A DNA stretch of 64,000 nucleotides from Cycas panzhihuaensis (Eukaryota > Plantae > Cycadophyta), in NCBI GenBank assembly GCA_023213395.1, contig CM041465.1, forward strand, positions 170,321,741-170,385,740. The letters run 5' to 3'. Numbering within the stretch: position 1 is the first letter of the stretch; every line of letters begins with the position of its first letter. The translations under genes and the position numbers were made by a program. Positions 231 through 62,060 of this stretch are shown here, one piece after another. The notes below the pieces were generated by a model that was not told the origin of the DNA, searched no databases, and worked only from the letters and a program-made list of their open reading frames with translations.

Positions 231-624
231 TGCTCTAATACCGGATGAAAGAAATAAAATCATGGAGAATAGGGTAGAACATAAAAGAGAATCATAAATC
301 AATATATTATTATTGCACAAATATGAGAGCCATTGTATTTAATCTATTTTGTAAAGAGAGTATTACAAATGTCCATAATGAAGGTGATGTCTAAATACAC
401 CAAGGTTACACACCCCTCAAATTATATAGTTTGGGGTAGGAAGGAAACTCCTCAACCCCTAAAATTTAAATAATAATAAAATAATATAAACTTAACTCAA
501 ATTAACTAAACTTACTTTATACTTACTTACACATGTTGAGCACCCACATGTGTAAATTAATGAAGATGAGGTATGCACTCCTAGTTAGAAGGTGGGAGAG
601 GGGTGATGAGCATTAACCCCAACA
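231..624 (-). mobile_element. 5' LTR (246-624) plus PBS (231-243) of an LTR retrotransposon whose internal region runs off the left edge
   Basis: The reverse complement starts TGTTGGGGTTAATGCTCATCACC and ends TTTCA, followed by tccGGTATTAGAGCA (tRNA-iMet PBS variant). It is homologous to the LTRs at 60925 and 44823. Confidence 0.8.
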
Positions 625-3073
625 ATTACACTATGGATCACTATTTACAAATAAGTAAATGATCAATATACAAGATTATAAGCCAATGTAGAAGCTAACA
701 TCATTAGGTATACATGACTTAAAACTCAAATGTAGGATGTGTAATCAACCCAATAATCTCTAACTTGTGTCCAACATATAGTTGAGGTTGTTAAAGGGAT
801 ACCTAAGATTTTAGTAGAATTAAGTTAGAATTCACCCATGATACCTGCAATTATGTTTGGTAATAAAATTCAAGTCACAACAGAGCTTAAGTACACCTAA
901 TCCTCATCCAGTTCACCAATAAGAAGCTATATACCTCCTCTAAAGAGTGGTACATACATACCCGTGCCTATGATAGATATTGAACTGCATATATTTTAAT
1001 CTTATATTAAAGTTTTAGTTTTCCTGGTTAGTTATCAGGATGATCCCTGATTGAGGCATGATGGTATGGCTAACCAAACCTCACCAATATTTTGGTTCAG
1101 TTTAGTCCCAACTTGAAACTGACACCTCTTTTATGGCATGGCATTCTGTCAACAAAGGTATCTCAACTTTGGTAAGTATGTAAATAGGTATGAGATGGCA
1201 GAAAATAAAGTACAAGATGTATTCCTTTTAGAGAGAGTAAAAAGATTATCGAATTTGCATCAAACGTACATATAACTTAAAATAGAGTACTTTTGGAGTG
1301 TCTGTGGAGTGCTTGCTTGAAGTGATTTTAGAGTGTTGAAATGAAATGTTGATAAGCGAGTGAGGACACCAAATATTACTCTGATCCAAGTGGTTTTTTA
1401 TTCACTTTTATAATAGGCTTTTAAGCCTTACAAAAAGAAGGAAGAAAATTTCTTCACAATTTTTTTACAAAAAAACATATTTCCACTAAAACATCAATAC
1501 CTTTCTCCCATGGTAACAAAATTGAGTGTTAACTTTTGTGCTGTAAATTAGACTCAAAGCTACATCTTTAAGAGTTAGAATTAGGTCAAAATGAGTTTTG
1601 CAAAATTTTTGGTAGCCCCGCAAAGTGGATAAAATATATATTTCCAAAATCCTTACTAAAAATAACTATTGTTCACTAAAATAGTAATAGCTTTCTTATA
1701 TGACAACAAAATTAGGTGTTATTTATTGTGCTAGAAACTAAACTTAGAGGCATATCTTTTACAATTAGAATTAGGTCAATTGAAGCTCTATGGAATGTTT
1801 TACAAACATGTGAAGTTGAGTAAGTATATTTTTATTTCTACAGAAAATCTAACTTATAAATATCTCATCAACACATGATACCATATAAAATTTCCATCAA
1901 TTTTTTATCACTAGGATCTCAATATAGACAGGGTGAGAGCATACAATGATGAATATTATATATGGCTTCAAATTATTTAAAAAAAAGGGTAAACCTCCCC
2001 TTACAAATATTCTTTTAAATGTTAAAAAAAAATTGACAATATTTCCCCTTGTTAAACAGACAAAACAAAGAGAAAGAAAAGAAGAATAAGATATGCATAA
2101 ATAGATACCAAAAGATTGGAATCCTTAGTCCTATAATTTCTTATATTATGCTTCCAAACCTATAAAAGAGAAAGGGAAATCAAATAATATTAAATATGCT
2201 ATGATAAAAACTTAAAAATATTTTCAAATCCACTTTTACAATCTCCTTCACCACATGGATTTTGGAGGAGAAGGAAGTGATGGCTCCATTACAAGTACAA
2301 GTGAGGAATATGAAGGAAGTTTACTCTGATATTATATGAAAGTAGTGGATCTAGCCTTCATTTCTATGCACTAAACATAAAGGCAAAAATGTAGGAAGAG
2401 AGACTTGAGAGAAAGAGTAGCTCTCACAAAATAGGGAGGTGAGAATAAGCCTCCTCTATTGAGCTTTTACTTTTATATTGAGAGAGAAAGCATTAGAGTT
2501 AGGTGAAATGAAATTACACATAATGCATATGAAAGTGCATTTCACTTAAGTGATCTAATTTAAAGTTCACTTAAGACCCTTTTTAAGAATAATCAACTAA
2601 TGTAATGACCTTGTGACATTAACTTATTTCAATAGCTTCTCCCTTCTTGGTTAAATTTGGAGGTTTAAAATCCCTCCTTAATGACTCTAGTTTCACTTAT
2701 TTTTCAACCTTCTACTTAGCCAACCTATTTTATAATCTTGTCCATTAGTTCTCATAATATTTGGCTTTATAGATTACCTCCTCTAAAATGTTTTTCTCAT
2801 ACACCTTATTTTTGTTTCAAATACTCTCATTCAACTTGCTAATAAATCTATCGATTTTACCTTCTCCTCCTAAATATATAGTATGTATTGGAGTAATTCC
2901 CTAAGTTCTCTCTCACACTCTTCTATAGCCCTCCTTCCTTGCTTTAAATCATGAAAGACTTTTATCTTATTATCATAATATTGCTCAAAGAAATAACCTT
3001 TATTTGAAGTATTTAATGAATTTTCTTCATATTATTTCTCTTTCTGAAAGGTCCTTCATCCTCTTGTGATGCT

Positions 3074-5814
3074 TGTTGGAAATCAAATATGCAATAAGAT
3101 AATATTCGTAAATAGAAATAAACACCTCCAGGATCGAATAGTACCCTTAAGGTACCTCAAATTCTATTAACAAAACATCCTTACAACAAATATTCCATAT
3201 GATACACTATGTGTGTATTTATAATACATGATATGATAGTGAATGTGGGATCCACTTACATGTGGGATAAAACAAATATGTATTACTAATATTCCAACAC
3301 TTCCCCTTAATGCACATTTGGGTCATTTCTATTTGTAATGCCTTGTCTTTGGAAATGTCTTAAAGATAATGTCTTCAACTTGATCCTTGTCTTTAATCTT
3401 ATAGTGATTTCTTTGCTATAGAATGGTGTCTTCAACTTGATTTTCATCTTTAATTCTATATTGATACCTTTGTAGGATGATGTCCTTAGCTTGATTTCCA
3501 TCTTCCATCATGTAGTGATAACGTTGTTGTAGCAACTCTAGTAAGTATGAATCCCGATTCATCATTATGCCTGGTCTAGTATGATTTTGATGTAGATCCT
3601 ATAAGTTACCATCTTCAAATAAAACTTGATTGTCATCATTATCCTATATAAATTCTTGATCACTATGTACAACAGTGATTTCTTCAACCTTTGGAGCAAA
3701 ATCTTGATTAACTTGCATACTCTTTAAACCTGAATCATGGATCAACACAGGAGCATCATTTAGACTTGAATCAATACAAGACTCATCTTTTATAGAACCA
3801 TCATATTCATATTTAATTTCATTTGAAATAATAATGTCATCTAAATAAACCTTATTGATTCATCACTCTCAACGTCTACAATAGAAGTTGTAGTCTCATT
3901 AATGTATTCAGTCATATATTTGGTAGTAGTTTCATTAATATTTAAATATTCTTTATTTTGGCATACTATTTCATTAGTGTTGATAATATTTTCTTCATTT
4001 GTTATACCTGTATCATAACCATCACTAACCTTAATTACCTTTTCAATCATTTGTTATATCTCTTCAGGAGTTTGTTCAAATACATCCCTGAAAAAATCCC
4101 ATGCTTCCTTAGTAGTACTTGTATGTTGAATCTTAAGAATGATAAAATGGTATGTGGAAGGAAGTTCAACCTTGTTTAATATAGTAAGAATCATGATGAA
4201 TGCCTTTCTGTCTTTCTTCTCAAGCATTTCCTTTTCTTCTTCATCCTTCGGAATATCATATCCACTAGTAACAAGCTTCCACAAACCTCTAGCTATGAAA
4301 AAAACATCTCATTTTAATTGTCCAAAAGAAGTAGTCTTCTTCATTACACTTAGGTGTCAGAAGAAATAAATCCTTTAAGTAATATTCATTTATTTCATGA
4401 ATATATATAACCACATCATTTTTCTCCATGATTATAAATGTACCTCCAAATAATGTCCCTTTTTCAATCAACAAATTCACTCATTAATCAATCTCAATAA
4501 ACTTTCTCATATCTCATGTCCCTCACATCATTGAATTCATTGTCACATCATCACCTTGCCCATTTCTTATAAACAGTCACATAAAATCTAAAACACTCAC
4601 TTCACCAAATCAATGCCTTATAAATCTCATAATGATCATACATGCTACATGTCATTATTAAATTGCTAAGACACACACTTCACTTAATTGCCCAAAATAT
4701 AACTCATGCCACTACACCTGCAAGTCAGGTAACTTCAATAAAAACTCATCCTTCTTTGCCCATTTAGTCAATTAAAATACATCATCAAACATGCCTAATC
4801 TCATCCTTAAACACACACAACAAATACCCAATATTGTCATGTAACCTCACATGCAACAAGCATCTCATATCACTATCTTTCTTACCCTCAAATTAGCCTT
4901 ATCATGCCTATAAAGTCCCTTCATGTAAATCACATTCCAATGAGCACTAAATCACCATATGTTACCCAACTCATTCATGCAGACACATGCACTATCGCTT
5001 CATCACCATACTATGTCATCATCACAATAGTTCTCTCATACGAATATATGTAAGAAGGCACTTAATTTGACATTAAATAATCACCATCATGCATCTCAAA
5101 TCACTAATAGAGCGCCAAATACATTCACATCAACATGACTTAATTTTGTCTCAAAAAGTACTCTCCCATGTACAACACACACAAGAGAGCCTTAAATAAT
5201 CACCTCATATTGCACCATCACCCAACTTATTTTCTCATGTAAATTGCATACAAGAAAGCCTATAATCACCTCATCTCACCCATTAATCATGTTATTTCTT
5301 TCCTATAAACTTTCTCATGTAAATACATATAAGAGAGCACTATATCCATGCCTTAAATATTATCAACAAATCACCATCATACAACAAACTCATGCTTACT
5401 TCATTATCAAAATAAGACCCTTTTAATAAATGAAAAATGCATCATCAATATCCATAATTATCACCTCATTCATACCATCATCCAAAAGTATCATCCTTTT
5501 CCAATACTATATATGTATAATAGATATATTAGGCCCCAAGAGTAATGGTTTTGTGGCTAAGAAAAATATAATATGAAACCCTTAAATTCCTAAAAAACTT
5601 ATTTATGAAAAAAATATAGCTTAAAAATATATAAATATGGGTGTAAATGATGACCTTTAAAATATGATTCCAACAGTTTAGACAAAATTAAATTCTGATA
5701 TCATATATTCCAACGGTTCAGACAAAATTAGATCTTGTATTATAAATATGATAATGAGTGTGGGATCTACTTGCATGTGGGACAAAATAAATGTTCATTA
5801 CTAATATTCCAACA
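3074..5814 (-). mobile_element. Non-autonomous gag-only Ty1/copia derivative (TR-GAG-like), 2.7 kb
   Basis: TSD ATGCT at 3069-3073 and 5815-5819. 3' LTR 3074-3299 (TGTTGGAA...TTCCAACA) with PPT at 3300-3309. Only ~80 bp of the 5' LTR (5735-5814) is recognisable. No pol motifs inside. Confidence 0.8.
4054..4480 (-). pseudogene. gag: Frameshifted copia gag N-terminus (DUF4219/UBN2-type)
   Basis: EEDYFFWTIKMRCFF / LWKLVTSGY...KKDRKAFIMI...TTKEAWDFF matches the copia gag pattern Y..W..KM...LW..V..GY...AWD. Confidence 0.75.
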
Positions 5815-6800: not shown

Positions 6801-8757
6801 CCTTGAAGTTAATCTCTTACAATCTCTTGGTAAGTTTCCAAACATGCTACTCTATTATTTTGAAACTTCAACTACACTTTGAAAAGTCTTTGTAAGCTCT
6901 CAACTTGTTGCTTTGAAAAGTTCTTATAGGCTTTCAAACTTGCAACTTTAAACCAAACATGAAACAAGACTGTAATAAGCTCTTTGCATGCTTTTAATCT
7001 GAAAATTCCTTGTTAATTTCTCCGTTGGTATATAGGCTTTAAATCTAGCTTTTCTACTGGGTTTTGTAAACTTTCAAAGCCAACTACTCTGATACTAATT
7101 TGTCATGACCCTTCTCAAGCATAAGGTGCTTGTGATATCACCTAGATGGAATTCACTTGAGTTACATAATAAGGACAGAACCAAATTATCTAAGAACTTG
7201 AATATATAAAAATTTATTTAAAATATTATATATATTACAAAAATATTTACCTAAGGGGTGTGGAAAATCTAAATGAACATAGGTGATCATGCATTAATAA
7301 GTAGGTCTAATTTGTCGATAACAATTCATGCAAGATAGATAAGATACCCAAGCATTATATCCCTCAATGAGGTAATGTACATATGATACGTGCATAAGAG
7401 AAAAATCAAATAGGTTGCTTAAATGGATTTACAACCCAACCAATAGCAATCTTGAAAAGGAAAACTTGTTAAAATATAGCAAAATAGCTATGATACCATT
7501 TTGAAATATAGTACAACAACTCTTATACCATGTTGAAATATGACACTAATGGACATATGAATATGTAATAAAATATATTTACATGAGGTGATAAAAGATA
7601 TAAACAATAAACAAATGAAGAATGAAGTATGTATAAACACATAAGATAATAATTCTTGTGGGAAATAATCATCTCTAATTATTGCATTAGGTATGAGCAT
7701 ATACTTTTATAGTACATAGGCACTTTATAGTTGTCTAATCACATAAAGGAATTGCCATAACCACCACTAAGGTGATACATGGATATGTGTGCATATATAC
7801 ACATCTTAATGACTCTAATTTAATATTACATAAAAGAGTTAGGGGCACACCTTGATATTAACACTAACCTAATATTAAACATTACTTCTAACACCCCCTC
7901 ATAATGTTTAATGTCACGTCAAGACACACTAACCCTTTGTTGTACAATTCCACTAAGCTAATCATCATAATTGCCTCCTCCTTCAAGTATGCTAGATCAA
8001 ATGAAAAACATCTCTAACTTGTACAAGTTATATCTTCAAGCTACTTAACATTGCCAGTTATTAATGACATTTGTATAAATAAAGCTCCATCTACCTAACT
8101 GTAGGTGTAATTGATCATTACAACTATAAATTCTATAGAAACCTCCTTCAGATATATGGATTTACTAGCATCTATCAACACCATTCTAGGAATAGGCCAA
8201 ACTATTCGTTCAACCAAATGAGTTGAATACCAAACAAAGTAGCTTTACTTCCTAAAGCCTCCCCTTTAGGTTCATCAGTAAGTAATATTACTTAAAGTCT
8301 CCAACACTAGTTTCTTTAAGATTTTTAATATAATTCCCTAGTCCTTCCAAGCCTTTTACTATTATTACCTAGTCTCTCCAAGCCTTTCAGTATCAACATT
8401 TGGTGTCTTAAACTCTAATCTCTCTAAGGTTTTCAATGATCCTTAAAGCCTTCATAAATGGTCTCTTCAAAATGCCACACACTTTCTAGCCTCCTCAAAA
8501 TAATCACACAGTCACCATATGGCTTACAAGTACTAGCAACTGACAAATAAATACAAGATATGAGTTATGAAATTCATTTAATAACTCTCTCATTAAAAAA
8601 ATTTCCATTTTAACTTAATGGTTCTCCATGATGAGGACTTTAAAATATGCTAAGTGACTAATCAATGTGTTTGTCTCCAAGTCTTCTTTCCAATGCAATT
8701 AATGACACTTAATTCTGACTCTAAATGATGAAGTTATACCTCAAAAATGATAATATG

Positions 8758-9935
8758 TGATCTGAATCTTGAATGGGAAAGTGAAAACTTTAACCAATTG
8801 AAACAAAATCCAGAACAATATACATATTATTACATATAATTTAAAATTTCTAGAATTTTCTTACAAAAACCCCCTTGTTTGTGCTCTGTTGAGCATACAA
8901 TGATGGGCTAACTGACATTTTGGGAGAGAGAGAATGAGAGCTGGCGCTTCTTGAGTGCGCTCATTTCTTTGGAACACTGTGTCTCGAAGTCTGCCGCTTT
9001 TGGTTTTCTGTACCAAAAACCCCGTTTTGGGTGAGGAAGACTGGCTAGCGTCTCTTCTGGGACTGCTGCACTTTACTGTCTTCTCTTCTGGACTGAGGCT
9101 GCGATTTTCTGGGCTCCTTCCAGATCCCCGCAACTAGTTTCTTCTGCTGTGTTTTCCGTCTTTTATCTCTCAACGCAGATTTTACTCTTGGAGCCGTTCT
9201 CTTTCCAGAAAATGATTTTTCTTGGAGATTTCTTGAATCTTGCTTCGTGCTGCATCTAGGGCTGCGGTGTCCTCTCTTTCGTGTCAAGAATCTCTGTCTT
9301 GATCCCCCAGATTCCTCTGTCAAATTTCGCTTAAAAGCGTTTCCATTTGAGAGAGTTATTCCCATTTTTCTGTTTTCTCCGTTTTCTAACGGTTTTCAAA
9401 ACGATTTAGAAACTCTTAGGAAAATCCATTTATTTTGGAGTTTTCCCTCTTTGAATGAGTAGAGGACACGTGTGTGCACCTTCTCCTCAAATTTCGTGCC
9501 AAACGGTTACCGTTTGAGCCGCCAAAACCATTCCCATTTTTATTATTTTCTATTTTTTGACTTGCGATGGCGGTAGTAGCACTCGATGTGACCACAGCAG
9601 TAGTAGCGACTCTGTGAGACTATGTGACTCTGTGCAGACTCAGTAGTGACCAGCTTTGTAGCAACCGTAACACTTGCATAACACCTTGGTAGCGCCTTGG
9701 TAGCAATTATAGCACCTTGGTAGTAGTTGTAGCACTTTAATAGCAGCTCGGTAGTAGTTATAGCACCTTTTTACACTTGTAGAAATACAATGTTTTTACA
9801 TTTTTAAACCTTTTAAAGGCATATTTCTACTAAATGGAGACTATTAAGCCTTTTTAAGGCAATTTCCTACTACATAAAGACCATTTACATGAAAAATAAA
9901 GTATTTGGAGCATTTTAAAGATCTGAAACGGATCA
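8758..9935 (-). repeat. 3' LTR of the gypsy element (1178 bp)
   Basis: Direct repeat of 13950-15165, adjacent to the PPT. Confidence 0.95.
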
Positions 9936-9973
9936 GAACTCCCCTTTTTTAGGAGTTCATGGCCTCATGAACT

Positions 9974-12900
9974 TTATAGTTGTAGATGAGGGAATTTGAT
10001 TTTCCCTGTCTCCTTATTGTACCATTTTGCTTTACTAGGTACTTGTCCTTTCTCTGCAATTCTGAAGGACTCAATTATGCCTCTTCGAGTCTCGGTCTGC
10101 TTCCTTTAAAGAATGCAATCATTTTGCATTGGTTCCTCTTTCTCTATCCACAACTCCTCTGGGTTTGGTAAGAGTGGAACTCTGTCTTCATCTTCATCCA
10201 ACATGGATGGCTCGAACATCTTCAGATTCTCGATATTCACTACGGAATACATCTTCATGAATTCTAGAAGTTCAAGCTGGAAAGCATTTTCCCCTATTTT
10301 CTTCAAAATTGTAAAAGGACCATAACGTAAAGGCTTTAGCTTTTTGCCTTCACCTTGCAATCTTTTCTTACTGAGGTGCAACCAAACTCTATCTCCTTCC
10401 TTAAAGGAATGGCTAGTTCTATGTGCATCATGCCACTGCTTGTATCTCTGTTGAGACTTTTGAAGCTGCTCTTCAACCTGTTGATGGATTTTCCTGATTC
10501 TTTCCAAGAATCTTTGTGCCTTTTCATCTCCTTCTTCCTCCTTTCCATTTCCTGCAGAAAGTTGAGCAGAAAATTCTAAATCGAAAGGACTTGCAAGCAG
10601 AAATCCCAAACATACCTCAAATGGTGATTTCTGGGTTGAGCTATGAATAGCTCTGTTGAATGCAAATTGTAAGTATGGGAGACTTTCATCCCAAGTCTTA
10701 GGATGCTTGGCATTGTATCCTCGTAACAGCTGTACCAATGTCCTATTGACAACTTCAGTCTGGCCGTCTGTTTGAGGATGAAAAGCTGTACTCATCTTTA
10801 GCTTCGTATCCATCATTCCCCAAAGTGTTTGTCAAAAATGACTCAAAAATCTGCTGTCTCGATCAGAAATGATTGAGTTGGGAAGTCCAAAATACTTCCA
10901 AACATGTTGGAAAAATAATCTAGCTATGTCTTCTCACGTATGTGTTTTCTTCTGGGGAATCAACATCACCATTTCTTGAATCGATCAACAACAACAAACA
11001 AATAGTCCATACCATTTTTGGTTTGTGGTAGTCCTCCCAAGAAATCCATGGAGATACTTTCCCACGGTCGTGATGGAACAGGAAGTGGAATGTACAATCC
11101 AAACTTCCTATTGGCCAGCTTTGATGTACTACATAATGTACACCCTCGTACTGCTGTAGTCACATCTTGCTGCATGTTTGGTCAATACATATATCGTTGT
11201 AAGTTTAGCAACGTCTTTCCCACTCCAAAGTGTCCAGCAACTCGAGAAGTGTGAGCTTCTCTTATCCACTTCATTCGGTCTGCATGCTTTGGAATGCAAA
11301 GCTTGTCTTGCTTGCAAAGAAGTCCATCTTTCATTTGAAATCTGCAACTACTTTTCCTTCTTTGTGGTCGCTCAAAGATAGGCTTGAATGCCTTATCTTT
11401 CAAATACAAATCAACATATTCATCATGGCAGAAAGGTTGAAATTACATAGCTACCAACAAACTGGAATTACCTTCTTTGTTGAGGAGGTCTGGGCAAAGA
11501 AGTCTGCAATCTTATTCGTCGTTCCTTTCTTGTATTTTACCACGATGTGAAAGCTAGCGTAAATAGGACATCCACTTCATGTGCACGGCTCTTTGCAATT
11601 TAGACTGAGTCTGCAAGAATTGCAAAGGCTTGTGGTCGGTGTGGATGACCACTTCTTTTCCCAACAAATAGGGTCTCCAATGCTTCACTGCTTGGTGCAA
11701 TGCATAGGACTCTTTATCGTAAGTTGGGTAATTCATGACAGCTCCATTGAATGTCTCTGAATGGTATGCTATCAGTTTTCCTTCTTGCTTCAATACTGCT
11801 CCCATGGCATAGCCTGAAGCATCAGTCTCCAATTTAAAAGGCTTCTGTAGTGAAGGTAAAGCTAACACTGGTGCCTCACAGATTTTCTGCTTCAAAAGCT
11901 TGAAAGCTTTTTCTTGTTCCAAGAGTTCTTGAATCTGCTTCTTAATCTCTTCATTCTCCAAAACTGAGTTTCGGTAGAGACTAAGATTCGGCAAAGGTGA
12001 ATCAGCAACCATCTGGATTTCATGTTCAATTGCCCTTTTAGGGGGCAGCCCTTTCGGCTCTTAGAATACATCACTGTACTTATTCTTTAGACCTTCAATC
12101 TGCTGCACTTGCTTCCTATCCAGTGCCTGTATTGAGGACTCTGCTTGCTCGTTTTCTTCCACCTTTGGCTTTATCATCAGCAGCACAAACTTCCTACAAG
12201 CATTAATTAATCTTTTCGCTTGTTGGGAAGATATGAGAGAAATTTTCTTCTGTGGTTTTGATGCATTGATCAGATATGATCTCCCGTCCTTGATGAGTCG
12301 AATCTTTCTCAGCCTCCTGTGGTGAACTCCATCTCTATCATAGAGATATGGGCTGCCAAACACGACTTGACAAACATCCAAAGGGACTACTTCACATTCA
12401 ACTTCATCAATGAACTTTTCAGAAATTGCAAATTTAAACTTATATTGGTGAGTAACCTGCAACTCTGAATCTTTTTGCAACTATCCAAGAGGATATGGTT
12501 TTGGATGTGCATGCATCTTTAATCCCAGTTTCTTTACCAATGCTTCTGAGATTAAATTCTTTTGGCTTCCTCCATCAAAGATGGCATCAACCATGCTTTG
12601 CTTCACTTGGATTCTTACCATGAAGAGCTCCTCTCTAATCTCTGGATCAACTTGCTGAGGGTTGTCTCCAGGCTCCGCATTAGCCATGAGCATCAGCTTC
12701 TCATCGGCTTCTTCAATGCTGCCAACATTTTCATCACCTACAGAGTTGAGTAAAGTTTTACCTTCAGTCTTAACTTTACCTTTCCCCTTGTTCTTGGGCC
12801 TTTTCTCTGGGTGTAGGAACCAATAGTCTTCTACGCTGTGACCCGCTCGCTTGCAATGAGTACAAGTGATTTTGATTTGGGTGGTATTAGCTTGTTTCAT

Positions 12901-13834
12901 CTTGCCAAAACCTCTAATGGATTGTTGTCCAACTTTACCTGGAAACTTCATTCCTCGGGCAGGTTTGTTGCTACCTTCTGGAGGTGCAAACCTTTTCCTT
13001 TCGGCATAAACCTTCTTATTCCTCTTTTCTATGGCAATTGCCTTCTTGTTGGCTTTGTCGAGCGATTTGACTTCAAATAGTTGAAGTTCTTCTTTGAATA
13101 TCTTTGGTGCGATCCTCTAATATATTTCAAGATCATGTCTTTACCCGATAAAGAGATGCCCAACACAACGACTTGCTTATACGAAATTACATTGTGTAAT
13201 CTTGGACATTTTGGCCTCTTTCACATCGGTAATATTGCCATCTAATCCTCTGTTGCTCTTCATATCCAATAGGATAGAATTGCTTCTTTATGAGGATTTT
13301 AAACTGTTGCCAAGTGATTTCATTTACATTATGGGATTTAATGTATGCATTCCACCAAACTAATGCATGTTTAAATAATTTTAACTTAGCAAAAGTTATT
13401 TTCTGCTGGTTTTTATACCCATAAATGGAGAAATAAGTCTCTAGTTGGTCTAGCCAATTATCCAATTTTTCAGCATCCAACATTCCATCATAGATGGACA
13501 ATTCAAGTTTTGCCTCTACCTTGAATGGATATGTGAATACTGCTAGATTTTCATCTTCTTCATCATTTTCTTGTCGGTTTTCTACCAACTCTTCATTCAT
13601 CTCCTCTTTCATCGGTTCTTCTTCTTCCTTCTTTACGCCTTTGGCTGTTGGAGAAGAAGTTGCAACTAGCTGTGCCACAAGCTGGGTTAGCCTGTCGAGG
13701 TTCTGCTCCATTTTTACGAATCTTTCCTCCATCTTCTGCTCCAGATCAGCCATCTTCCTTCGCTGTTTTCTTTCTCTCTCTAGAGGCTCAGTTAGAGGTT
13801 CACCCGTTAACAGATATTGGTATCTAGTTTTCAT
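9974..13834 (-). pseudogene. gag-pol: Disrupted gag-pol: gag, zinc knuckle, aspartic protease, [RT deleted], RNase H, integrase, divergent chromodomain-like tail
   Basis: Gag WLDQLETYF...ALVWWN; knuckle CTHCKRAGHSVED; protease AIFDGGSQKNLIS; RNase H LETDASGYAMG..YDKE..TDHKPL; integrase HTSRVAGHFG, PWESISMDF, FHPQTDGQTEVVNR, YGPF; tail IL*RKQTETRRG...KAKWY...KFPHL. Several stops and frameshifts. Confidence 0.93.
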
Positions 13835-13949
13835 AAAACTACCAACAATGAAAGCAAGAAGTTTTTTTTTCCTTTTCTTTTCTTTCTTTTTCTTTAAAAT
13901 CCCTAAATTCCCAAGGGTTTCAAGAAACTAGCTTTGATACCAAAAATAT

Positions 13950-15165
13950 TGATCTGAATCTTGAATGGGAAAGTGAAAACTTTAACCAATTGAAACAAAA
14001 TCCAGAACAATATACATATTATTAAATATAATTTAAAATTTCTAGAATTTTCTTACAAAAACCCCTTTGTTTGTGCTCTGTTGAGCATACAATGGACTGC
14101 TGCAACGTTTTGGGAGAGAGAGAATGAGAGCTGGGCGCTTCTTGAGCTGCTGCTCATTTGCTGGAACCTCCATCTCGAAGTCTGCGAAGCCGTTTTTGGT
14201 TTTCTGTACCAAAAACCTCGTTTTTGGTGAGGAAGACTGGCTAGCGTCTCTTCTGGGACTGCTGTACTTTACTATCTTCTCTTCTGGACTACGGCTGCGA
14301 TTTTCTAGGCTCCTTCCAGATCCCCGCAACAAGTTTCTTCTACTGCGTTTTCCGTCTTTTATCTCCCAACGCAGATTTTACTCTTGGAGTCGTTCTCTTT
14401 CCAGAAAATGATTTTTCTTGGAGATTTCTTGAATCTTTCTCTGTCTTTGCATCTAGAATCATGGCGTCCTCTCTTTCGTGTCAAGAATCTCTGTCTTGAT
14501 CCCCCAGATTCCTCTCTCGAATTTCGCTTAAAAGCGTTTCCATTTGAGAGAGTTATTCCCGTTTTCGCTTTCTCCGTTTTCTAATGGTTTTCAAAACGGT
14601 TTAGAAAATCTTGGGAAAATCCATTTATTTTAGAGTTTTCCCTCTTTGAATGAGTAGAGGACACGTGTGTGCACCTTCTCCTCAAATTTCGTACAGTTCT
14701 GGATTTGAGCCGCCAAAACCATTCCGTTTTATTATTTTCTGTTTTTTGACTTCTGCAGTAGTAGCCATAGCATCGATGTGACTCTGTAGCACTCGATGGC
14801 AGTAGCAGCTCTGTAGCAGCTCCGTAGCAGCCTATAGCAGCTCTGTAGCAGCTCCGTAGCAGCCCATAGCAGCTCTGTAGCAACCGTAGCACTTGCGTAA
14901 CACCTTGGTAGCGCCTTGGTAGCAATTATAGCACCTTAATAGCACCTTGGTAGCAGTTGTAGCACTTTAATAGCAGCTCGGTAGCAGTTATAGCACCTTT
15001 TTACACTTGTAGAAATACAATGTTTTTACATTTTTAAACTTTTTAAAGGCATATTTCTACTAAATGGAGACTATTAAGCCTTTTTAAGGCAATTTCCTAC
15101 TACATAAAGACCATTTACATGAAAAATAAAGTATTTGGAGCATTTTAAAGATCTGAAACGGATCA
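13950..15165 (-). repeat. 5' LTR of the gypsy element (1216 bp) with a 10-11-bp GTAGCAGCTC(T/C) tandem array at ~14800-14890
   Basis: Direct repeat of 8758-9935, followed on the minus strand by the PBS. Confidence 0.95.
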
Positions 15166-17196
15166 ATATGTCCTTCAAAAAATCAAAACAATATTGAAAA
15201 ATAATTAAGAACCCTTTTATTTAGTCATTAGTTACATATTTATTTCCATGTAACCATCCTCTATGGCTCTAAGTGCTAGAATGCATTTTAACACTTTATT
15301 CAATATAATTAAATACAAATTAAATATTATAAATAAATAATTATTTTTAAAAATAATTCCAACAACACTCGAAATAGTGTTTTTAATTACATTTTGATAT
15401 ACAACAATTTCAATGTTTAAATCAAATCCATTCATCTAATCAACTAATTTGATTGGGCAAACTATATATTTTCTATAGGTGTCAATGATCCAAGTTACAC
15501 CTCATATCATCTTTGTAAAATGTGGTGTTATAATGATTTTTCTTCTTTAATGCATTTAATGTCCAAGAACCACCCTTAATTTCAAGCCCATCATACATTT
15601 AATTTGCATTCTTCAACAACAATAGTGACAATGAGAATACTCTCTATTTGGTGGTTAACATATAGTGTTTGTTTAGACTACTCACATCTTTGATGGCACC
15701 CTTACTTTGCAAAGTCTATACCCACTATTTTTGCAATCTTTGCCCAAGTTTGATAAAGCTTTATGTGTCACTAAATAACCCTCTTTTTAGTGTATTCACC
15801 CTAGTGCATTTATGAATAGTAGTTCCTTGCCCATCTTATCTACACATTCACCAACTTAGATCTTCATTATAGTTAAACCCATGTCTATTGGGTTTTGTAT
15901 TTATGTTTATGGTCTATGTGTAGGGATAAACTCCTAATGATAGGTGTAGTGATTTCTTTCAATTAGGCATTCATTTGCTATGGCATGTACATCTTCAAAA
16001 GGGCGATGACTGATATGGGTGACTCATAATAGCAAGAATGACATATAATAGTATGCAAATATTTTGGCAGATGGTTCTAAAAAGTGACCCAATAAATTAA
16101 ATTCTTTATCAAATAAACCATACTTCTCATCATTCACTTAGCAACGATGATTATTTTGATAGGAAAATCTACATATGATTCAAACATTTGTAACACAAAG
16201 CCAACAACATTCTTCCTCATACTTCACTTAAGAGAGAATGATAATGATTCTTCATCTAAAATGTCAAAATGAATAATAGATATACTCAGGTGTGTAAACT
16301 TGATCACACTTATCGATTGAATACCTAACACACTACTAGTTTTCTTTGATAACCTAAATTGTCAGCAAACCATAAGCATGCTTGTGATCTATAATACTAT
16401 GGGATTCATTCAGTTCATAGGGCACCCGTCATTCTAATCTGAAATACATCTCCATAAGACAAGAGATTGAAACATTGATGGCAATATTATAAAATAAAAA
16501 ATTCACATTTCATACATACCTTCAAACCCTCATATGTCTAAACATTTAAATACTTTCATCAATTGGATACCCTTAACATATTACTTGTAGAACTCTTCAA
16601 AGCCATCAAAACACATTACATGTTTATCTTTTAACTAATATAATACTGGCTTTAATCACTCTTTATTTTACTCTCATAGGGTTGTCAATCCTGCTTGGGC
16701 AATCTCTTTTTGTGAATATACTCCATAACCCTACATGTTATATATAGGGATCCCACTTGAATATTAACTATCCACAATAAAAATAAATAATATTTCTACC
16801 AATTTTTAATGTGCCTCTTCAACATCTTTAGCTTGCCCCATTCTATAGTCATATCTTCTCAACATAACCTTTTTAGAATTATTGATTGAAGTTTCCTTCA
16901 TGAGGTCTCTTTAATCTTGTAAACTAAACCTTATCTTACTCTAATTTGCTTCATAAGATCGATCACACTACCCTACTTTGATATTGTATTGAAATATAAT
17001 AGAACAACTTTGATACCATGTTGAAATATGGTATTAATGGACATATGAGTATAGAATGAAACACATATACATGAGGTGATAAAAGATATAAATAATAAAT
17101 GAATAAAAGAATTAAGTATGTACAAACACATAAAATAATAAAGCTTGTAGAAAATGATCATCTCTAATTATTGCATTAAGTATGAATACATACTTA

Positions 17197-33720: not shown

Positions 33721-35464
33721 CTTAACATTGTAAATAGTAAAAGGGGGTCTTAAACCTTATATTTACATGTTAAGTATGTACTTTATTCACTTTATTCTTT
33801 TACTCATTATTTGTACTTTATGGGATGACTTATCACTTAACTAATAAAGTGCACACCCACATTCTTTCTAGTGAATATATCTTTGCTCACATGAGAGCCC
33901 AAAAGGACATATGTCCTTCATGCATGCCATGCAAGACAAGCATTACATGTAGCTTAGATGTTTGTCACTTGTTAAACATCCAATGCTATTAAGTCTCTTT
34001 AGTTCTCTATATATTGAGACCTCTTCTCATGTCTCACATGAAGAGTTGGAGTTGTAATGTTATGCTATCAATTTGCTAATCAACTGGTATTCCTTTGGAG
34101 ATTGGACTAATTCCATCTCCTCGCAAATTTGGTATCATCTTGCTCTTTGGACTTTGATCTTGTTTATCTTTTAGTTTTATTTTCCTTGCTAGTTATGCTC
34201 TCATGCTTTCTAGAACTGGAGTGAACTATCTTCATGATCTTGGATATCATAGGCATTAGGCATTCTCAACCTTTGGCATTCTCAACATTAAGGCCTACTC
34301 ACCATACTCATGCTTAGCATATCCTACAATCATAACATCCAATAGTACCACATTTCCTATAGTCATTTTGTCTGAGGCCCTGCAAACATCTACCAAGCTT
34401 TTGCACTTGGCATATTTACAAGGGCACTTCCCACAAAAATATGAGACTAAAATCCACTTCTCATTATGTTTTCATGTGCCTTATTGTCTTTTATTAGAGT
34501 TTCCACTTATGGGGAGTTGGTCTGTTTCCTTTTTGGTTGGTTAGCATGTCTCCCATCTTCTATTGCTGGTATTCTTTATTTGTCCAAAAAAAAAATGGAG
34601 CTAAATTCACACTCATTTCCATTCATATTTTTCACTATTTTTTGTACAAGAAATCATGAGATTTGCTCAAGTTTTGGGACACATTTCAAAAGAAGGTTGC
34701 TAAGTTTTAGATTGATGTATGAACAACTTGTTTGTTGCACGTTAAATGCATACTTGTCTTCATCATTAACTCATAAATAGAGTAACAAAATATATATACA
34801 TTATACATAATCATAAATAGATCAATTATTTACAATTTTAGTCAAATATAAAGTAAAGATGTGTACTTGACCATGTTTGAGAGCCCAGAAGAAAACAAAT
34901 AATATATGAACACAAGAAAAATTTAAGTATTGAGACAAGAATTAGAAGACAAACAACAAAGTGACTTCACTAAACACAATTGTTTTAGATAAACCACCAA
35001 GTGAAAATGTACAAGTATTAGAGAGAGCACTTTGTATAGCCCATAGAATTCATGAGACGCTTTCTTTAGAAGTGTATAGTAGCATGAACTATTGAATTTC
35101 TTAAACTATAGGGGTTGCATATTTAATCACAAAAAACCTTATACATATCTAAATCGTATTGTTTAAGATAAAACCAAACATTTAAGAAATAATAAAAATA
35201 GCCTTCATTAAGCTTTGTGGCCAATATGGCTGTCTACAACATATTCATTTCCAAATATTGGGCTTTAGAAATTCTTGTCAATTTCAAACATTGCTTTCTT
35301 TGAATTGCTATGTATATTTTTATTTTTGATTGCATAGAATTTAACAACCTTCATCTTATTCATTTTTTTCTCTCTTAATCGCACAAGAAAAAATGCCACT
35401 TCTTTTCCAAGAGATCCCTTCAGATTTTCCAAGTAAAATGTCGTGACACACAAGTAAATTAAAG

Positions 35465-44822: not shown

Positions 44823-45416
44823 TGTTGGAGTGTAATGTCATCACTCAACTCCCTCTTACCTACTAGGCTTGTGCACCTCAATTTAGACATGTGATGCTCA
44901 ACAAGTCAAGGTAAGTTAAGGTAAGTTGAGTTAGTTTATTTGAGTTAAGTTACATTATTTTATTATTAATTTGAATTCAGGGCTTGAGGAGTTTCCCTCC
45001 TCCCCCAAAACTATTTATATTATGGGGTGTATAACCTTGGTGTCTTTAGACACCGCCTTTTTGAGGATATTTATCATGCTCTCAACAACAGTGGATTGAA
45101 GACAATGCTATCATGCTCTCATAGTTCATTTGTACAACATCGATCTACATTGTTACATAGATTTGTATTAAATATTTGATGCGATACTGTTATTTTGAAT
45201 ATATTGAAGTTTATTATATCTTCTGCCCTATTCTCCTTGTGTATTATATTTTCCTACATTTAGTATCAAAGCAGTCTAGCTACATTATATTCCATCATTT
45301 GGTATCAGAGCAGTTTAGCTACATTCTATTTCTAACATTTGGTATCAGAGCATAGTCCTGCTATTATATTTCTATCATTTGGTATCAGAGCAGTCTAGCT
45401 ACATTATATTCCATCA
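44823..45416 (+). mobile_element. Solo LTR whose 3' end contains four tandem PBS-bearing units
   Basis: TGTTGG start, CATCA end, perfect TSD TTAGT (44818-44822, 45417-45421). The core is homologous to the LTRs at 246-624 and 60925. Confidence 0.9.
45259..45416 (+). repeat. 4 x 39-40-bp tandem units, each TTTGGTATCAGAGC (PBS) plus ~25 nt ending in CA
   Basis: Units at 45259-45297, 45298-45337, 45338-45377 and 45378-45416. Confidence 0.95.
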
Positions 45417-49202: not shown

Positions 49203-52200
49203 TATTACAAACCTCCTTAAAGCTAATTAATTAAATTATTAAGTGAATATGCACCTTTGAACAGTTACAACCTTTTATGAAGTGACCTACTCTATACATA
49301 TAATTACTCTCTTTGATGTAATTAATCAGTCAATTAACTATTAACATACTTTTGACATACTTATGCTCTCAATTGTCCTTTGAAACCTAAGAGTTGCCTT
49401 CACTTATAAACAAGGTTCATAACAAGTGGTATTAGAGCAATGTTCCTACCATGTGAAAACTATTTTAGCTCCCAGTTGCTCCATGTAGCAATCTAGTTAC
49501 AAAGAGGTGACGCGAGATCTTACAGATTGATCTATTGGAGTCACTCAACCCTTGTTATGGCTAGAATTAGTAAAGCATATAGCCACAGGAGAAATGAAAA
49601 ATCTATTCAATAAAAGAAAATCAATCTCCATCAAAGAACTTATTAAAGAAAAGAAAATTTAGGGTACTTTTCAAACACTCCACATTCACCTTAAACTCCT
49701 TTAGCATTGTCAAAATTAATCCTTTAACCACTGCCTTCCACTTCATAAGTCCATCAACCACTACCTTCCTTATCTTATCAAAATAAATAAATAATAATGT
49801 ACATTAACTACAACAATCTCCATAATTGTTTACCTCTCCAACTATTCAATGCCCCCTTTTTATTATAATAATCTGCTACCATCATCTGTTGTTATATTTA
49901 TATTACATTGTTGTATACTACTAACTGTACAAAATATTTGTACCAAAATACATTATTGTAGCTTGCTATTGTATTAATTATAAGTTATTATACACCTTTG
50001 CATAACTGTTCAAGGCATCCTTATATAAGACGTCGTCTCCATCATTCGGTCCTTAACACCTTTGTCTATTAATCATCAGCCATGACTGCATATTATTTAT
50101 ATACTCAAGTAATAGGATCCAAACTCTTACACTCTCACATCTAATACACAACCATACAAATAACACTTAGATGCCTACTCGCTAATTAAATAGACATAGC
50201 ACATATTGACCTTCACATACAAAGTATACAAAGTTCATAAAATCATGTGGAATAATTATTGTAGTCGTATAAACTCTATGTAGACACCAAAATAGTTGTA
50301 ACATCACCATGCATTATTCAATCTAATCTATTATATTATCTATTGCATTATAGCTTTCTACATAAGTTGGATTGGTACATAAATTTGATCAATGCATTAG
50401 ACATGACATGGGTGTGCGACACATATATAAATTTCACAATGGATATCAATTGGTTAGAAATATTAAAGGCATCATAATAAGGTTACATATTATATATATG
50501 ACTTTAATATAATTGACATATTATATTCATCACCATCCACTTAATAGTTTGTTTATCATTTTGTCGTTTGCATAATCTCATCTTCTACAAGCACATGATT
50601 GCAAAAGGTTTGGATATTACATTTCAATCCAATTATACATAATATTATTGAGACCCATCCAAGTTACTATATTGTATAATTTAATTGCAATATTCTTCTT
50701 TAAAAGGGATAATAATTGGGTTATCTTATATGTGCTTTCTTATGTCACATTATAAGCATAATTTCATATGTTCTTTTATAATAAAGGAGAATTAATTGAC
50801 TATTTCCCTTCGGTCGCTGGCTTGCTTACTCATCCATCACCTTTGACTTTTGCCACCTCATGGATATAGTAAGACTATCGATTAACGTAATATATTATTA
50901 ACATAAGTCACTTACATAAATCATAAGTTTGACAAATTAGCACATAGTTACAGAAGGGAATGGGTGGAATCACACCTAATCTATTATTAAGGTGATGAGT
51001 ACTGAAGACATGATTGACAACTCAATCCAGAAGGATATAGTTGAACCTATTACCCAAGCAGTCCATGAAGTTGTACAAACATCAAATGCTCTCTTAAATC
51101 ACACTCTACATCAAATTTTAGAAAAATTAATAGTCATGGTAGATGGCAGAAAGGAAGACATGATTATTCTTAACTCTAAAGATGAAGAAATTACTAATTA
51201 ATCATATGCTAGAACCCAAACCACAAAGAATCATTTGGGTCCTCATACAACTCAAGTTAATCTTGAAAATGAATCCATTAGGAAATATACTAATGACTAC
51301 CACAATTTGACTCTTGTAAAATAGAAGATAATGGTTTTCAAGTATATTTTAACTACCTACAAAGTATACAAGTACAGAAAAAGAAAAAAATACAATACAA
51401 TGCTTCAATATTAAGTAGAAATCACACAAATTGGGAGTGTGCATTTAATAAATAAAAAACTATTTTTGTCTAGTTGAAATTGAATCAACAAAACAAGTTG
51501 TTTTAGCTACCCTACACATAGATGAAATAGTATACAAATGGTGTCAATGCCTATAACGTACTATATTTTGGAATCAACTACCAACTTGAAAAGAATTTAT
51601 TCATTTAGTTATTGAATGATTCGAAATAGTGACTAGCCATGATTACTGTTGTGATTTATGGAAGTTAAAACAAATTGGATCTGTAAAATAATATAACACA
51701 ACTTTTACTAAGTTAATCTATGTATTAGAAAACATCCCAACCTATAGATTTATTTAACTATATATTGATGGCTTGATAATGGAGATCTAAGATGATGTTA
51801 AGGTCTAAGAACCAAAAAATCTTAACAAAGCAATACAATTAGGCAAAATATATGAAGAAACGCTCAATGCATTATGCAAAACTAATACAAACCCCTATAT
51901 TCCTCCACTTATTCAGCATAATCCATTGTGAAATGTTTATAATAAATCACTATCAACCAATTTGAATTGACCTATCAAGCCAATCTTTCAAAAGACAATA
52001 ATATAACAAGAAGAGTTAAGAAAAAAAGACCTATGTTTTAAATGTAAAAAGTAGGGTCCTGAGCATAAATGTCAAATGAACCAGTTATATATAATTAGAT
52101 TATTACCTAATGATAATATTGACGAAAAAGAACAAGAACAAGGGTTAAAAAATAATAAAAAAGATTATCATAACTATGAACATTAAGGAAGTTACTATAA

Positions 52201-53197
52201 TCTCAAGGTTAATAATCCAAAACTATTATTCTCATCTATCAGTAGTTTCACTAAACTAAATATATTAAAACTATGAGGATCTATAAAAAATTAAGTTGTT
52301 ACAATCTTGGTAGATTCATGTAGCACTCATAATTTCATTAATAGAAACTGCATTTGATAACTAAAATTATTTCCATTAAGGACTCCCTACTTCTAGGTAA
52401 GTATTGGAGGAAGATAAGTAATATCATGCCAAGGCATGCTGAAAAATATTAATTTCACAGTAAGTAATGTCAGCATTATAGAAGACTTTTACATCATTGA
52501 TATTAGAGGTGTAGATATTGTGTTCGATAGTCAATGGCTTTGTACACTTAGAACTTTTAAAATGAATCTAGTCAAGTGATTCATACAATTTAAGAAAGAA
52601 GGAAGAACCATTATGCTTTCCAAAAAAAAATGAGAAAAAACAAAGTAATATCACACAAGTATATAGATGAAGATACTGGAAAGTGTCCTCAAGATACAAA
52701 AGCTAAACTTTTCATGTTCCAAGTAGAAATTAAACTAGCAACTAAAAGAGCTAAAATATGTAAAACATCTTAAAAACATGAAAATTATTTTCAAGATCTT
52801 CAAACAGAAACTCTTCTAATAAAAGCTCACAACATCTGAATAATATCCTAATGGACACCAATTCAATGAATGACAACATTCATTTTAAGGTTTATAATCA
52901 TTTGACTATGTTTCATGGGTGAAACATATTAAAGAGAAAGGAATTGTTACAAACCTCCTTAAAATTAATTAATTAAATTATTAAGTAAATGGGCACCTTT
53001 GAATAGTTACAACTTTCTATGAAGTGGCCTATTCTGTACATATAAATACTGTCTCTGATATAACATTCAACATCACTTATTCTTTCTTCAATCAATTATC
53101 AGTTAAATGACTATTAACATACTTTTAATGCTCTTGTGCTCTCAATTATTCTCTAAAACCTCAGAGTTGCTTTCAGTTATGGAGAAAGTTTATAACA
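49203..53197 (+). mobile_element. Non-autonomous Ty3/gypsy derivative with gag and protease only (LTRs 49203-49424 and 52945-53197)
   Basis: LTR pair T(A/G)TTACAAACCTCC...ATAACA. PBS TGGTATTAGAGC at 49427-49438. PPT AAAGAGAAAGGAA. Near-TSD ATGCC/ATGAC. Motifs KLKQIGSV, ELRKKDLCFKC..GPEHKC and ILVDSCSTHNFI. No RT, RH or INT before the PPT. Confidence 0.85.
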
Positions 53198-57190: not shown

Positions 57191-57193
57191 TAG

Positions 57194-60100: not shown

Positions 60101-60290
60101 TGTACGAGTACCAAAATTAATACTTCTATGCAAGATGAAAGATATAGGTAAAATTAAACTTCCTTATTGTCTAATATGGACATCTGTGAGCAACTTCACT
60201 AGTTATGGAATTAACTAAGCTATAAACGACGTTCCCCCCTTTAAGTTATTACTTAATGAAATGGGTTATAGCTTACATCCTCAAAAACTT
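57194..60290 (-). repeat. Tandem segmental duplications A-A-A-B-A'-B inside the retroelement gag/protease region
   Basis: A units start at 57194, 57805, 58428 and (partial) 59542. B units at ~59043-59541 and ~59787-60290. Confidence 0.9.
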
Positions 60291-60924
60291 ATAATAATTT
60301 TCTCAAACTTATCTTCTTATGAGGCCTTCATCTATGAGTTCTCTAATGCTTACCACACATCCCTTAATCCAATGGTCACTATTAAGTCATAATTTTACTT
60401 ACCTTATGAATTTTCACTTGCACATTCTAAGTTATAAAACCTTCTATTCCTTCCATGTGTGGCTTCTTATATTTTTATGAGTTGCAAGTCTCAAGTTGTC
60501 TTCTCTACTTACACTTATAACTTTTCTTTAATGGTGGCTTCCTTCTAACCCATAGTATGTGAGATGCAAGTTATAAGAATTTCCCTCATAAATTTCCAAC
60601 TCCATTTTTTCTAAGTCTTCTTACTAATGTACATTATATACATAAGGATGCTCCTACATCAATGCCCCTTAAGGATATATCAAGTAATATAGGGCCCTAA
60701 AAGGATTAAGTTAGCTGGGAAATGCCCTTAACTAAGTAAGAAACTAATAGATGGAGAGGAGGACCTCCATTGGTAGGCATGCTCTATGGGCATGCTTGCT
60801 AAGAGGAGTTAGAATAGATATCTAAGTATAATCTATGCAAATAAGTGACACCTATCCATGGACCCTGGGTAGCTTAAGGAGGATATGTGGCCCTTCCATA
60901 CATAGGCACTCCTTGTGGAAGAGT

Positions 60925-62060
60925 TGTTGGGGTTAATGCTCATCACCCTACTCCCACCTTCTAACTAGGAGTGCACACATCACTCTCATCAATTTACACA
61001 TGCGGGTACTCACATGTGTAGGTAAGTATAAAGTAAGGTTGATTTAATTTAGGTTAATTTGAGTTAAGTTATTATTTTATTATTGTTTGAAGTTTAAGAG
61101 TTAAGGAGTTTCCCTCCTCCTCCAAACTATATATTTTGAGGGATGTTCAACCCTGGTGTCTTTAGACACTGCCTACTTTTGGACATTTATAATACTCTCT
61201 CTACAACAATGGATTGAATACAAAGCTCTTATGTTTATGCAACAATGATATATTGGTCTATGATTATTTGTTTATGTTCTATTATGTTCTCCATCACCAT
61301 TATTTTCCTACATTTGGTATCAGAGTTTGGTTTTAGCTCCTTCATCTAGTATCAGAGCAAGAAGATCTGTTAGTATTTTACTAGCCTCTTGAAGTTTTTG
61401 TGAAAAGCAAGAAGATTTATTGATATCTATAGCAGATCTACTCACAAGCAAGAAATATTGGTTATATTTATTTTCTACAAAGTTTTTTTAGTAGTTTCCT
61501 ACATTATTTTTTATCAGATTTGATTATTCTTGAAGATATACTTGTGATATAACAAACATATTTTAGATGTTTTTTTAGATTTGTGCAAGTGCATAGCTAC
61601 AAATAGTAAATATCAAGCTTTTATCATTCTATAGAGGTTTGATTAACAAGTTTTATATATTATTTGACCTTTTTCAAGCATATTTTTGTCTATTTATCTA
61701 ATATTTTTTCAGATTTGTGTAGGAGCATAACTACAAGCAATATTTATTCAAAGATTTTCTTTAGATATGCTATATATTTTTTAGATCTGCTTATTTTATT
61801 AATTATTTCACTATTTTTTTGTTTATTTATTTCAGATCTACAATATTTGCTTTAGATCTATAATATTAGCTACAGATCTGTAATATCTACTCTAGATCTG
61901 TAATACTTACTTCATATCTGTAATATTTATTCAAGGTTTCTTTCAGATCTGTATATTTTATCATATATTTGACCATTTTTTCAAGTTCTTTTTTATATTT
62001 ATAAGTTTTAGTACATATTCATCCCAACAAGCCATATAATATAGCAGATCTGCCTACTGG
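60925..62060 (+). mobile_element. 5' LTR (60925-61344, including one extra PBS unit), PBS 61345-61358 and AGATCT-rich non-coding interior
   Basis: Same family as 246-624. ...CCTACA TTTGGTATCAGAG...CTTCA TCTAGTATCAGAGC. ~21-bp AGATCTGTAATAT repeats at 61840-61950. Confidence 0.8.

What the first reader, a model, noticed from the sequence alone, without database searches (positions are those of the whole stretch)
231..61358. Internal PBS+U5-tip units recur in several unrelated LTR families and vary in copy number
Seen: one LTR family has 0 extra units (246-624), 1 extra unit (61313-61344) and 4 extra units (45259-45416). A second family has 32-bp units (7467-7530, 16987-17018). A third has a PBS-like motif ~39 nt before the end of both LTRs (17533-17543, 19462-19472). 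The copia LTRs carry TTTGGTATCAT at 26370, 26482 and 34128. A PBS-like motif also sits between duplicated segments at 5663-5735. The spacer sequences differ between families. Inference: this is convergent, mechanism-driven LTR extension by PBS capture rather than shared descent, and is the best candidate here for an undescribed system.
Basis: partly seen in the sequence, partly recalled or inferred. Interest (0 to 1): 0.78.

Follow-up and report, generated by a model that had tools for sequence, protein, structure and literature searches.

The report
Stacked primer sites lengthen retrotransposon ends
Several plant jumping genes here, and others in unrelated samples, carry one to four extra copies of their primer site plus repeat tip stacked at the end of their terminal repeats, likely because copying that starts from the outermost primer site builds the inner ones into both repeats, a likely side effect of reverse transcription with no function shown.

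Summary
The core observation holds. TSD-bounded LTRs carry head-to-tail [tRNA-Met PBS + U5-tip] units: family A (0, 1, 4; only the 4-unit solo LTR is TSD-bounded), B (1 in the 5' LTR, 2 in the 3' LTR of one element), C (1 in both LTRs). The window has 6 tandem PBS pairs against 0 in 60 shuffles. Copia D has older PBS remnants plus a 16-nt tip duplication. The 5663-5735 motif is not a case. 'Unrelated' fails: B and C are homologous, and A-C have no RT to place. Recurrence is shown outside the window. A metagenome scan gave 114 loci, with TSD-validated elements carrying 1+1 and 2+2 units, deeply divergent copia lineages, and two gypsy loci (5' side only). Best reading: a local tip+PBS duplication, then priming at the distal PBS, copies the old junction into both LTRs. 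Ten literature searches found no description; the mechanism follows textbook reverse transcription. This scan noted the same architecture once before in another genome (e1-9523320). Verdict: a new variant of a known kind, not a new system.

The parts
246..624 (-). Family A copy 1, 5' LTR with no extra unit
   Evidence: TG..CA ends; 81% to copy 3
232..243 (-). PBS (tRNA-Met type, 2 mismatches) of A copy 1
44823..45416 (+). Family A copy 2, solo LTR, TSD TTAGT/TTAGT
   Evidence: empty-site contig, net 599 nt
45259..45416 (+). Four PBS+tip units (39, 40, 40, 39 nt); spacers of units 1 and 4 identical 25/25
   Evidence: tip similarity p 0.003-0.01
60925..61312 (+). Family A copy 3, 5' LTR core
61313..61344 (+). 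One 32-nt unit in A copy 3 (LTR membership not validated)
61347..61358 (+). Terminal PBS of A copy 3 (1 mismatch)
7467..19689 (-). Element B, no coding detected, TSD 4 of 5; hosts nested G and C
7467..7530 (-). Two 32-nt units ending the 3' LTR of B (LTR 7467-7893, purine tract before it)
16987..17018 (-). One 32-nt unit ending the 5' LTR of B; matches 3' unit 1 (27/32) better than unit 2 (24/32)
16975..16986 (-). Decayed terminal PBS of B (5 mismatches, all transitions)
17197..19500 (+). Element C, no coding detected, TSD ACTTA/ACTTA, nested in the 5' LTR of B; LTR core homologous to B
17531..17571 (+). 41-nt unit in C 5' LTR; inner junction lacks CA
19460..19500 (+). 41-nt unit in C 3' LTR; inner junction lacks CA
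17574..17585 (+). Terminal PBS of C (3 mismatches)
25954..34287 (+). Copia element D, TSD TTAAG/TTAAG, LTRs 90% identical
   Evidence: RVT_2; INT before RT
26370..26383 (+). PBS remnant 158 nt before the D LTR end (also at 34128-34141)
26482..26495 (+). PBS remnant 46 nt before the D LTR end (2 mismatches; 4 in the 3' LTR at 34242)
26502..26533 (+).
26532..26543 (+). Terminal PBS of D
8758..15165 (-). Nested Ty3/gypsy element G, no unit (negative control)
49203..53197 (+). LTR element H, no unit (negative control; gypsy-like by eye only)
5663..5735 (-). Rejected: short direct repeat near the 5' start of another LTR, not a PBS+tip unit

Best explanation
The units are former LTR-end/primer-site junctions that sit inside TSD-bounded LTRs, likely made by a local duplication of U5 tip plus PBS and likely copied into both LTRs when reverse transcription primed at the outermost PBS. 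Shown: the head-to-tail [PBS + spacer + CA tip] layout, presence in both LTRs, copy-number variation among insertions, and recurrence in divergent lineages. Inferred step 1 (seed): slippage or template switching during reverse transcription duplicates 20-50 nt around the 5' LTR/PBS junction, often starting right at the 3' end of the 12-nt PBS, where plus-strand strong-stop DNA is thought to end. Inferred step 2 (fixation): minus-strand strong-stop DNA primed at the distal PBS includes the inner PBS and a new CA tip, so both progeny LTRs are one unit longer and integrase uses the new tip. Inferred step 3 (turnover): several PBSs on two co-packaged RNAs let priming and second-strand transfer use different copies, adding or dropping units; the inner junction can then decay. 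No function is needed.
For: Units inside TSD-bounded LTRs: A2, B, C. Both LTRs share the count in young TSD-validated elements elsewhere: L054 2+2 (98.0%), L068 1+1 (97.5%), solo L059 with 2; also L060 and L001 without TSD check. L006 shows the unfixed state: PBS+leader duplicated with no CA tip, and its 3' LTR lacks it. Unit ends resemble the family's own tip (A2 p 0.003-0.01, B p 0.003-0.007). In relatives of C the inner junction more often has the usual LTR-end layout (A at 17530 in 90-95% of depth, G at 17532 in 79-92%, C at 17529 in 13-41%; runs X1-X3), whereas both C LTRs here lack CA. Family-A contigs show joints that skip 40 nt (4 of 4 runs) or go back within the array. 9 of 20 clean duplications have no leader letters, against about 15% expected, P=0.001. 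Unit-bearing copia groups are 24-45% identical in Gag/PR/RT; gypsy domains follow the duplications in L044 and L070. The strand-transfer scheme is from passages of PMC6894440 and PMC13191261.
Against: No reverse-transcription intermediate or RNA was observed. B has 1 unit at the 5' end and 2 at the 3' end, which plain intramolecular copying does not give; post-insertion slippage explains this equally well. Across 37 hand-picked loci, CA precedes the first PBS in 27 and the last in 26 (background 26%), so general decay of the inner tip is not seen; the scan demanded two exact PBSs, which favours fresh cases. 17 of 37 loci have spacers explained by neither tip nor leader. Microhomology at the junction in only 3 of 9 tip-only cases (background 10%). 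The C unit shows weak tip similarity (p 0.41 and 0.027). Gypsy cases are single insertions seen on the 5' side only. The 9-of-20 count is open to bias from leader turnover and hand-picking.
Confidence: 0.72

Rival explanations
1. Ordinary post-insertion tandem duplication and unequal recombination in the chromosome make and resize the arrays; reverse transcription only passes on what is there.
For: The 5'/3' mismatch in B (1 vs 2) and in L073/L076; tip+leader and leader-only duplications (11 of 20 clean cases); many other tandem repeats in the window.
Against: A 3' or solo LTR cannot gain a PBS by local duplication because none lies beside it; units in TSD-bounded 3' and solo LTRs (A2, B, C, L054, L059, L068) need priming at a distal PBS or inter-element recombination. 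So this rival can explain the seed and the resizing, not the fixation.
Confidence: 0.15
2. Within this host the units of A, B, C (and D) descend from one ancestral extended LTR; no convergence is needed for the window.
For: B and C LTR cores and internal regions are homologous; A, B and C start alike; one A-B spacer pair p=0.001.
Against: A vs B, C and D cores do not align (z <= 1.0 for A2); unit lengths differ (39-40, 32, 41); 23 of 26 cross-family spacer pairs are not significant at 0.05. It says nothing about the other-genome lineages. It can hold alongside the best explanation.
Confidence: 0.3
3. The extra PBSs are kept by selection: extra tRNA docking or bipartite priming as in Ty3 and Drosophila Gypsy, back-up ends, or decoys for tRNA fragments and small RNAs.
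For: Inner PBSs in A2 are better kept (3 of 4 exact) than some terminal ones; the unit region is deeply covered in relatives; some units fold back on the tip (L004 group, no shuffle control); a second PBS binds tRNA in Gypsy (PMC1635307).
Against: Counts vary from 0 to 4 within a family; inner sites decay in C and D; exact inner sites outside the window were imposed by the search pattern; Gypsy's second PBS is at the RNA 3' end, not stacked in U5.
Confidence: 0.1
4. Chance motifs or assembly artefacts.
For: The 5663-5735 site is chance-level; 3-mismatch matches are near background (47 vs 39.8); short-read metagenome contigs can be chimeric (L073/L076).
Against: 6 tandem pairs vs 0 in 60 shuffles; units differ from each other (32-37 of about 40); TSDs; independent runs show the units.
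Confidence: 0.03

Closest known systems
Canonical LTR-retrotransposon U5/PBS junction and two-strand-transfer reverse transcription (PMC6894440, PMC13191261, PMC12786077; passages)
   Same: TG..CA LTRs, 5-bp TSD, tRNA-Met PBS 0-3 nt after the LTR; whatever lies 5' of the priming site is copied into both LTRs.
   Different: The junction is stacked 1-4 times inside U5, so PBS copies sit within 3' and solo LTRs.
Engineered retroviral vectors with two PBSs (Voronin and Pathak 2004, J Virol 78:5402; seen only as a title in two reference lists; text not held)
   Same: Two PBSs on one RNA; by its title both are used frequently.
   Different: Artificial constructs; here natural, each unit ends in a new CA tip, and the result is inherited.
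Ty3 bipartite PBS and Drosophila Gypsy 5'/3' PBSs (PMC1635307; abstract and discussion)
   Same: More than one site for the same primer tRNA.
   Different: Those sites lie at opposite ends of the RNA; these are tandem at the U5 end.
Tandemly arranged TRIM/Cassandra copies (PMC13570524; passages)
   Same: Repeats containing LTR sequence and a PBS, often within one TSD pair.
   Different: Their unit is a whole LTR plus internal region; here it is 21-52 nt of PBS and tip, with no PPT.
U3 tandem repeats of Tnt1 and retroviruses (PMC3601003; passages)
   Same: LTR length variation by short tandem repeats.
   Different: Those lie in U3 and are promoter elements; these lie at the U5 end and contain the PBS.

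Membership tests
LTR retrotransposon (elements A, B, C) | TG..CA termini, 5-bp TSD, PBS after 5' LTR, PPT before 3' LTR | tested here: met
   A2, B (4 of 5) and C have TSDs; B and C have purine tracts; A1 and A3 have a PBS only
Ty1/copia (elements A, B, C) | INT-RT-RH coding order or copia Gag | tested here: inconclusive
   No tblastn hit at E<0.01 in the B, C, A1 or A3 internal stretches held; superfamily unassigned
Ty1/copia (element D) | RVT_2-type RT with integrase upstream of RT | tested here: met
   PF07727 E 9.7e-14; INT hits 31268-31859 precede RT/RH
Named plant copia lineage (Ale, Ivana, Tork, SIRE, Gymco etc.; names recalled) | Placement on a reference RT tree (REXdb/GyDB) | not testable with these tools
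   No reference library held; only pairwise identities
Ty3/Gypsy-type 5'/3' dual PBS | Second tRNA site at the 3' end of the genomic RNA | tested here: inconclusive
   Units of A-C lie in the last 30-156 nt of the LTR, tandem with the true PBS; R/U5 border not mapped, so the D -158 site is open
Tandem-array TRIM | Alternating full LTR and internal region (PBS..PPT) | tested here: not met
   Units are 32-41 nt with no LTR start and no PPT
Dual-PBS priming | cDNA initiation at more than one PBS of the RNA | not testable with these tools
   Needs VLP cDNA; inferred only from units in 3' and solo LTRs
   Positive copia groups 24-45% identical, plus gypsy L044 and L070 (LTR inclusion not shown); no tree was built

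The most novel reading that the evidence does not exclude
A general ratchet for LTR growth: the 3' end of plus-strand strong-stop DNA re-primes in U5, and distal priming then fixes the product, so the U5 ends of many plant retrotransposon families are stacks of fossil primer-site/attachment junctions. Copia D (remnants at -158, -46 and -16) would record three successive extensions, and multi-PBS arrays would let copy number change at each replication cycle.
Probability: 0.35. Interest if true: 0.7.

Novelty: new variant of a known kind. Interest (0 to 1): 0.47.

Why it matters
It gives a concrete, testable route by which U5 and the integrase attachment end are renewed and LTRs lengthen. Natural elements would record which PBS was used and where plus-strand transfer landed, a fossil read-out of steps studied mostly in engineered retroviruses. 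In practice, LTR annotation tools can stop at an inner PBS and miss the TSD, PBS-primed (iPBS) markers will prime inside solo LTRs, and solo LTRs gain target sites for tRNA fragments (inference).

Tried and rejected
No whole genome is held, so the genome-wide scan was not possible. Viral-contig scan: 0 matches. The metagenome records are not searchable by handle, so 3' LTRs of the gypsy loci were not seen. No RNA holder listed. 5663-5735 rejected as a unit. Coding remnants in A, B, C: none found. General decay of the inner CA across families: not seen (27 vs 26 of 37). My note that C's inner tip reads GA was wrong; the CA positions read TG. PBS-end microhomology: 3 of 9, not decisive. MFE folds of units had no controls and are not used as support. 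Of 114 loci, 37 were scored; the rest were other contigs of the same family or insertion, or repeats without retroelement signs (bacterial-type Pfam domains in L003, L016, L078; none in L013, L021, L030, L051, L058, L077, L086). L009 was scored although aldo-keto reductase pieces follow it. The 47 clusters merge some families (e.g. L001 with L004). Literature: 10 searches found no description. PMC400373 and PMC1170264 are not held. That a modified base at tRNA position 64 ends plus-strand copying after 12 nt is recalled and was not confirmed. Repbase, TREP, REXdb and paper supplements were not seen and may record such LTR ends.

Full report
Setting. The window is 33% GC with CpG o/e 0.27, full of nested, decayed LTR elements, with a receptor-kinase remnant and an Ole e 1-like frame. 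It is plant DNA; gymnosperm-like is my inference only. No genome is held. Relatives of the A stretch occur in 22 of 24 listed runs from 13 studies.

Observation. Family A has three copies: A1 with no unit, A3 with one 32-nt unit before its PBS, and A2, a 594-nt solo LTR with identical 5-nt TSDs that ends in four units of 39-40 nt. A contig of run X7 lacks a net 599 nt there, the LTR plus one TSD, so the units are part of the inserted element. Each A2 unit is a 2-nt spacer, the PBS and 25-26 nt whose end resembles the LTR tip (p 0.003-0.01). The two 'second family' sites are the LTRs of one element, B (7467-19689, minus strand, TSD 4 of 5), with one unit at the 5' end and two at the 3' end. Element C sits inside B's 5' LTR and has one 41-nt unit in both LTRs. 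Copia D has two exact TTTGGTATCA 10-mers inside its LTR (0 of 1000 shuffles) and a 16-nt duplication of tip plus first PBS letters in both LTRs. G and H have no unit; of 17 LTR ends scanned, 7 have a site with at most 2 mismatches. Tandem PBS pairs number 6 against 0 in 60 shuffles. The 5663-5735 site has no CA tip and lies near the start of another LTR; it is rejected.

Relatedness in the window. B and C LTR cores align (z 7-23) and share internal sequence. A does not align with B, C or D, but A, B and C start alike and one A-B spacer pair is similar (p=0.001, 1 of 26). A, B and C yield no coding hits. The window therefore shows at most three groups (A, B/C, D) and cannot prove convergence.

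Relatives of A and C. On the A array, contigs of 4 of 4 runs skip 40 nt and others go back within it, so array length varies (joints in a repeat laid at 80% likeness are soft evidence). For C, 379-436 contigs per run in X1-X3 were laid (8 in X8). The inner junction more often has the usual LTR-end letters than the window copy, one contig skips 41 nt, and loose ends of low agreement at 17568-17569 suggest varied flanks beyond the unit.

Other genomes. In one family, L054 has 2+2 units (98.0% LTR identity, TSD), L068 has 1+1 (97.5%, TSD) and solo L059 has 2 (TSD); L073/L076 show 1 vs 2, with the 5' flank not held. Copia L060 and short element L001 have units in both repeats. In L006, L045 and L049 the second repeat lacks the unit. 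Copia domains follow the arrays in L004, L005, L006, L007, L015, L020, L060, L072 (weakly L038), and gypsy domains in L044 and L070. The copia groups are 24-45% identical to each other and to D. The gypsy cases are single insertions seen on the 5' side. Of 37 hand-picked loci (18 with retroelement evidence, some related; 19 by junction only), 20 are clean duplications: 9 tip-only, 9 tip+leader, 2 leader-only. Tip-only is expected in about 15% (P=0.001), but leader turnover could inflate this. CA precedes the first PBS in 27 and the last in 26 of 37.

Mechanism. In the standard scheme (passages of PMC6894440 and PMC13191261), everything 5' of the priming site enters minus-strand strong-stop DNA and so both LTRs. 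A duplication of tip+PBS gives a second, distal PBS preceded by CA; priming there lengthens both LTRs by one unit. A PBS inside a TSD-bounded 3' or solo LTR is hard to explain otherwise. The seed may come from slippage of plus-strand strong-stop DNA, from a switch between co-packaged RNAs, or from chromosomal duplication; tip-only junctions favour the first for some cases (inferred). Second-strand transfer relies on short PBS homology (PMC12786077 passage), so inner copies could be used instead. B's 5' LTR keeps unit 1 and lacks unit 2 (27/32 vs 24/32), which fits this but also fits later deletion. A2's order, with units 1 and 4 alike, points to several steps. Confidence 0.72.

What is known. 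Ten searches found no description of stacked PBS+tip units in LTRs. Seen: passages of PMC3902901, PMC4227088, PMC3601003, PMC6894440, PMC13191261, PMC2790888, PMC13570524 (12 of 32 places), PMC4350172, PMC12786077; abstract and discussion of PMC1635307. The two-PBS vector paper was seen only as a title; its text and the Ty1 plus-strand paper are not held. Repeat libraries, subscription journals and supplements were not seen.

Verdict. Real, recurrent and apparently undescribed in the library searched, but an expected consequence of known reverse transcription with no function shown. New variant of a known kind; interest 0.47.

Noticed in passing
window 8758-15165 (-): Gypsy element G has Gag, RH and INT hits but no hit to a gypsy RT query, suggesting an internal RT deletion; 7-nt gap between LTR and PBS; LTRs 93.6% identical.
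   Followed up: partly
window 35465-37900 (-): Broken LRR receptor-like kinase gene (kinase domain by Pfam; LRRs by eye), with a PPR-like fragment nearby (by eye).
   Followed up: partly
window 38793-44800 (+): Another copia (PBS, INT, RT/RH remnants) ending just before the A2 solo LTR; no unit upstream of its PBS. A further RT/RH remnant at 45974-47440.
   Followed up: partly
window 39582-39970: Near-perfect palindrome (74-nt arms with no loop; 115-nt arms) combined with a 110-nt tandem repeat and (AT)n, inside the leader of that copia.
   Followed up: no
window 54314-55513, 57186-58974, 59045-60295: Degenerate 28-nt repeats, a 621-nt tandem array and a 748-nt duplication.
   Followed up: no
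window 63103-63489 (-): Ole e 1-like frame (PF01190, E 2.9e-6).
   Followed up: no
window 25784-25839 and 34420-34475: 56-nt direct repeat (86%) on both sides of copia D, outside its TSD.
   Followed up: no
L059 vs L073/L076: Same right flank: a solo-LTR form and a longer form of what looks like one insertion.
   Followed up: partly
L004, L005, L074, L103 arrays: In this copia group the unit spacer holds an inverted copy of the LTR tip, giving a hairpin (no shuffle control).
   Followed up: partly
L021 410-1340 (-): Long 30-nt tandem array whose units hold a PBS-like 12-mer; could be a satellite grown from such units or an unrelated coding repeat.
   Followed up: no
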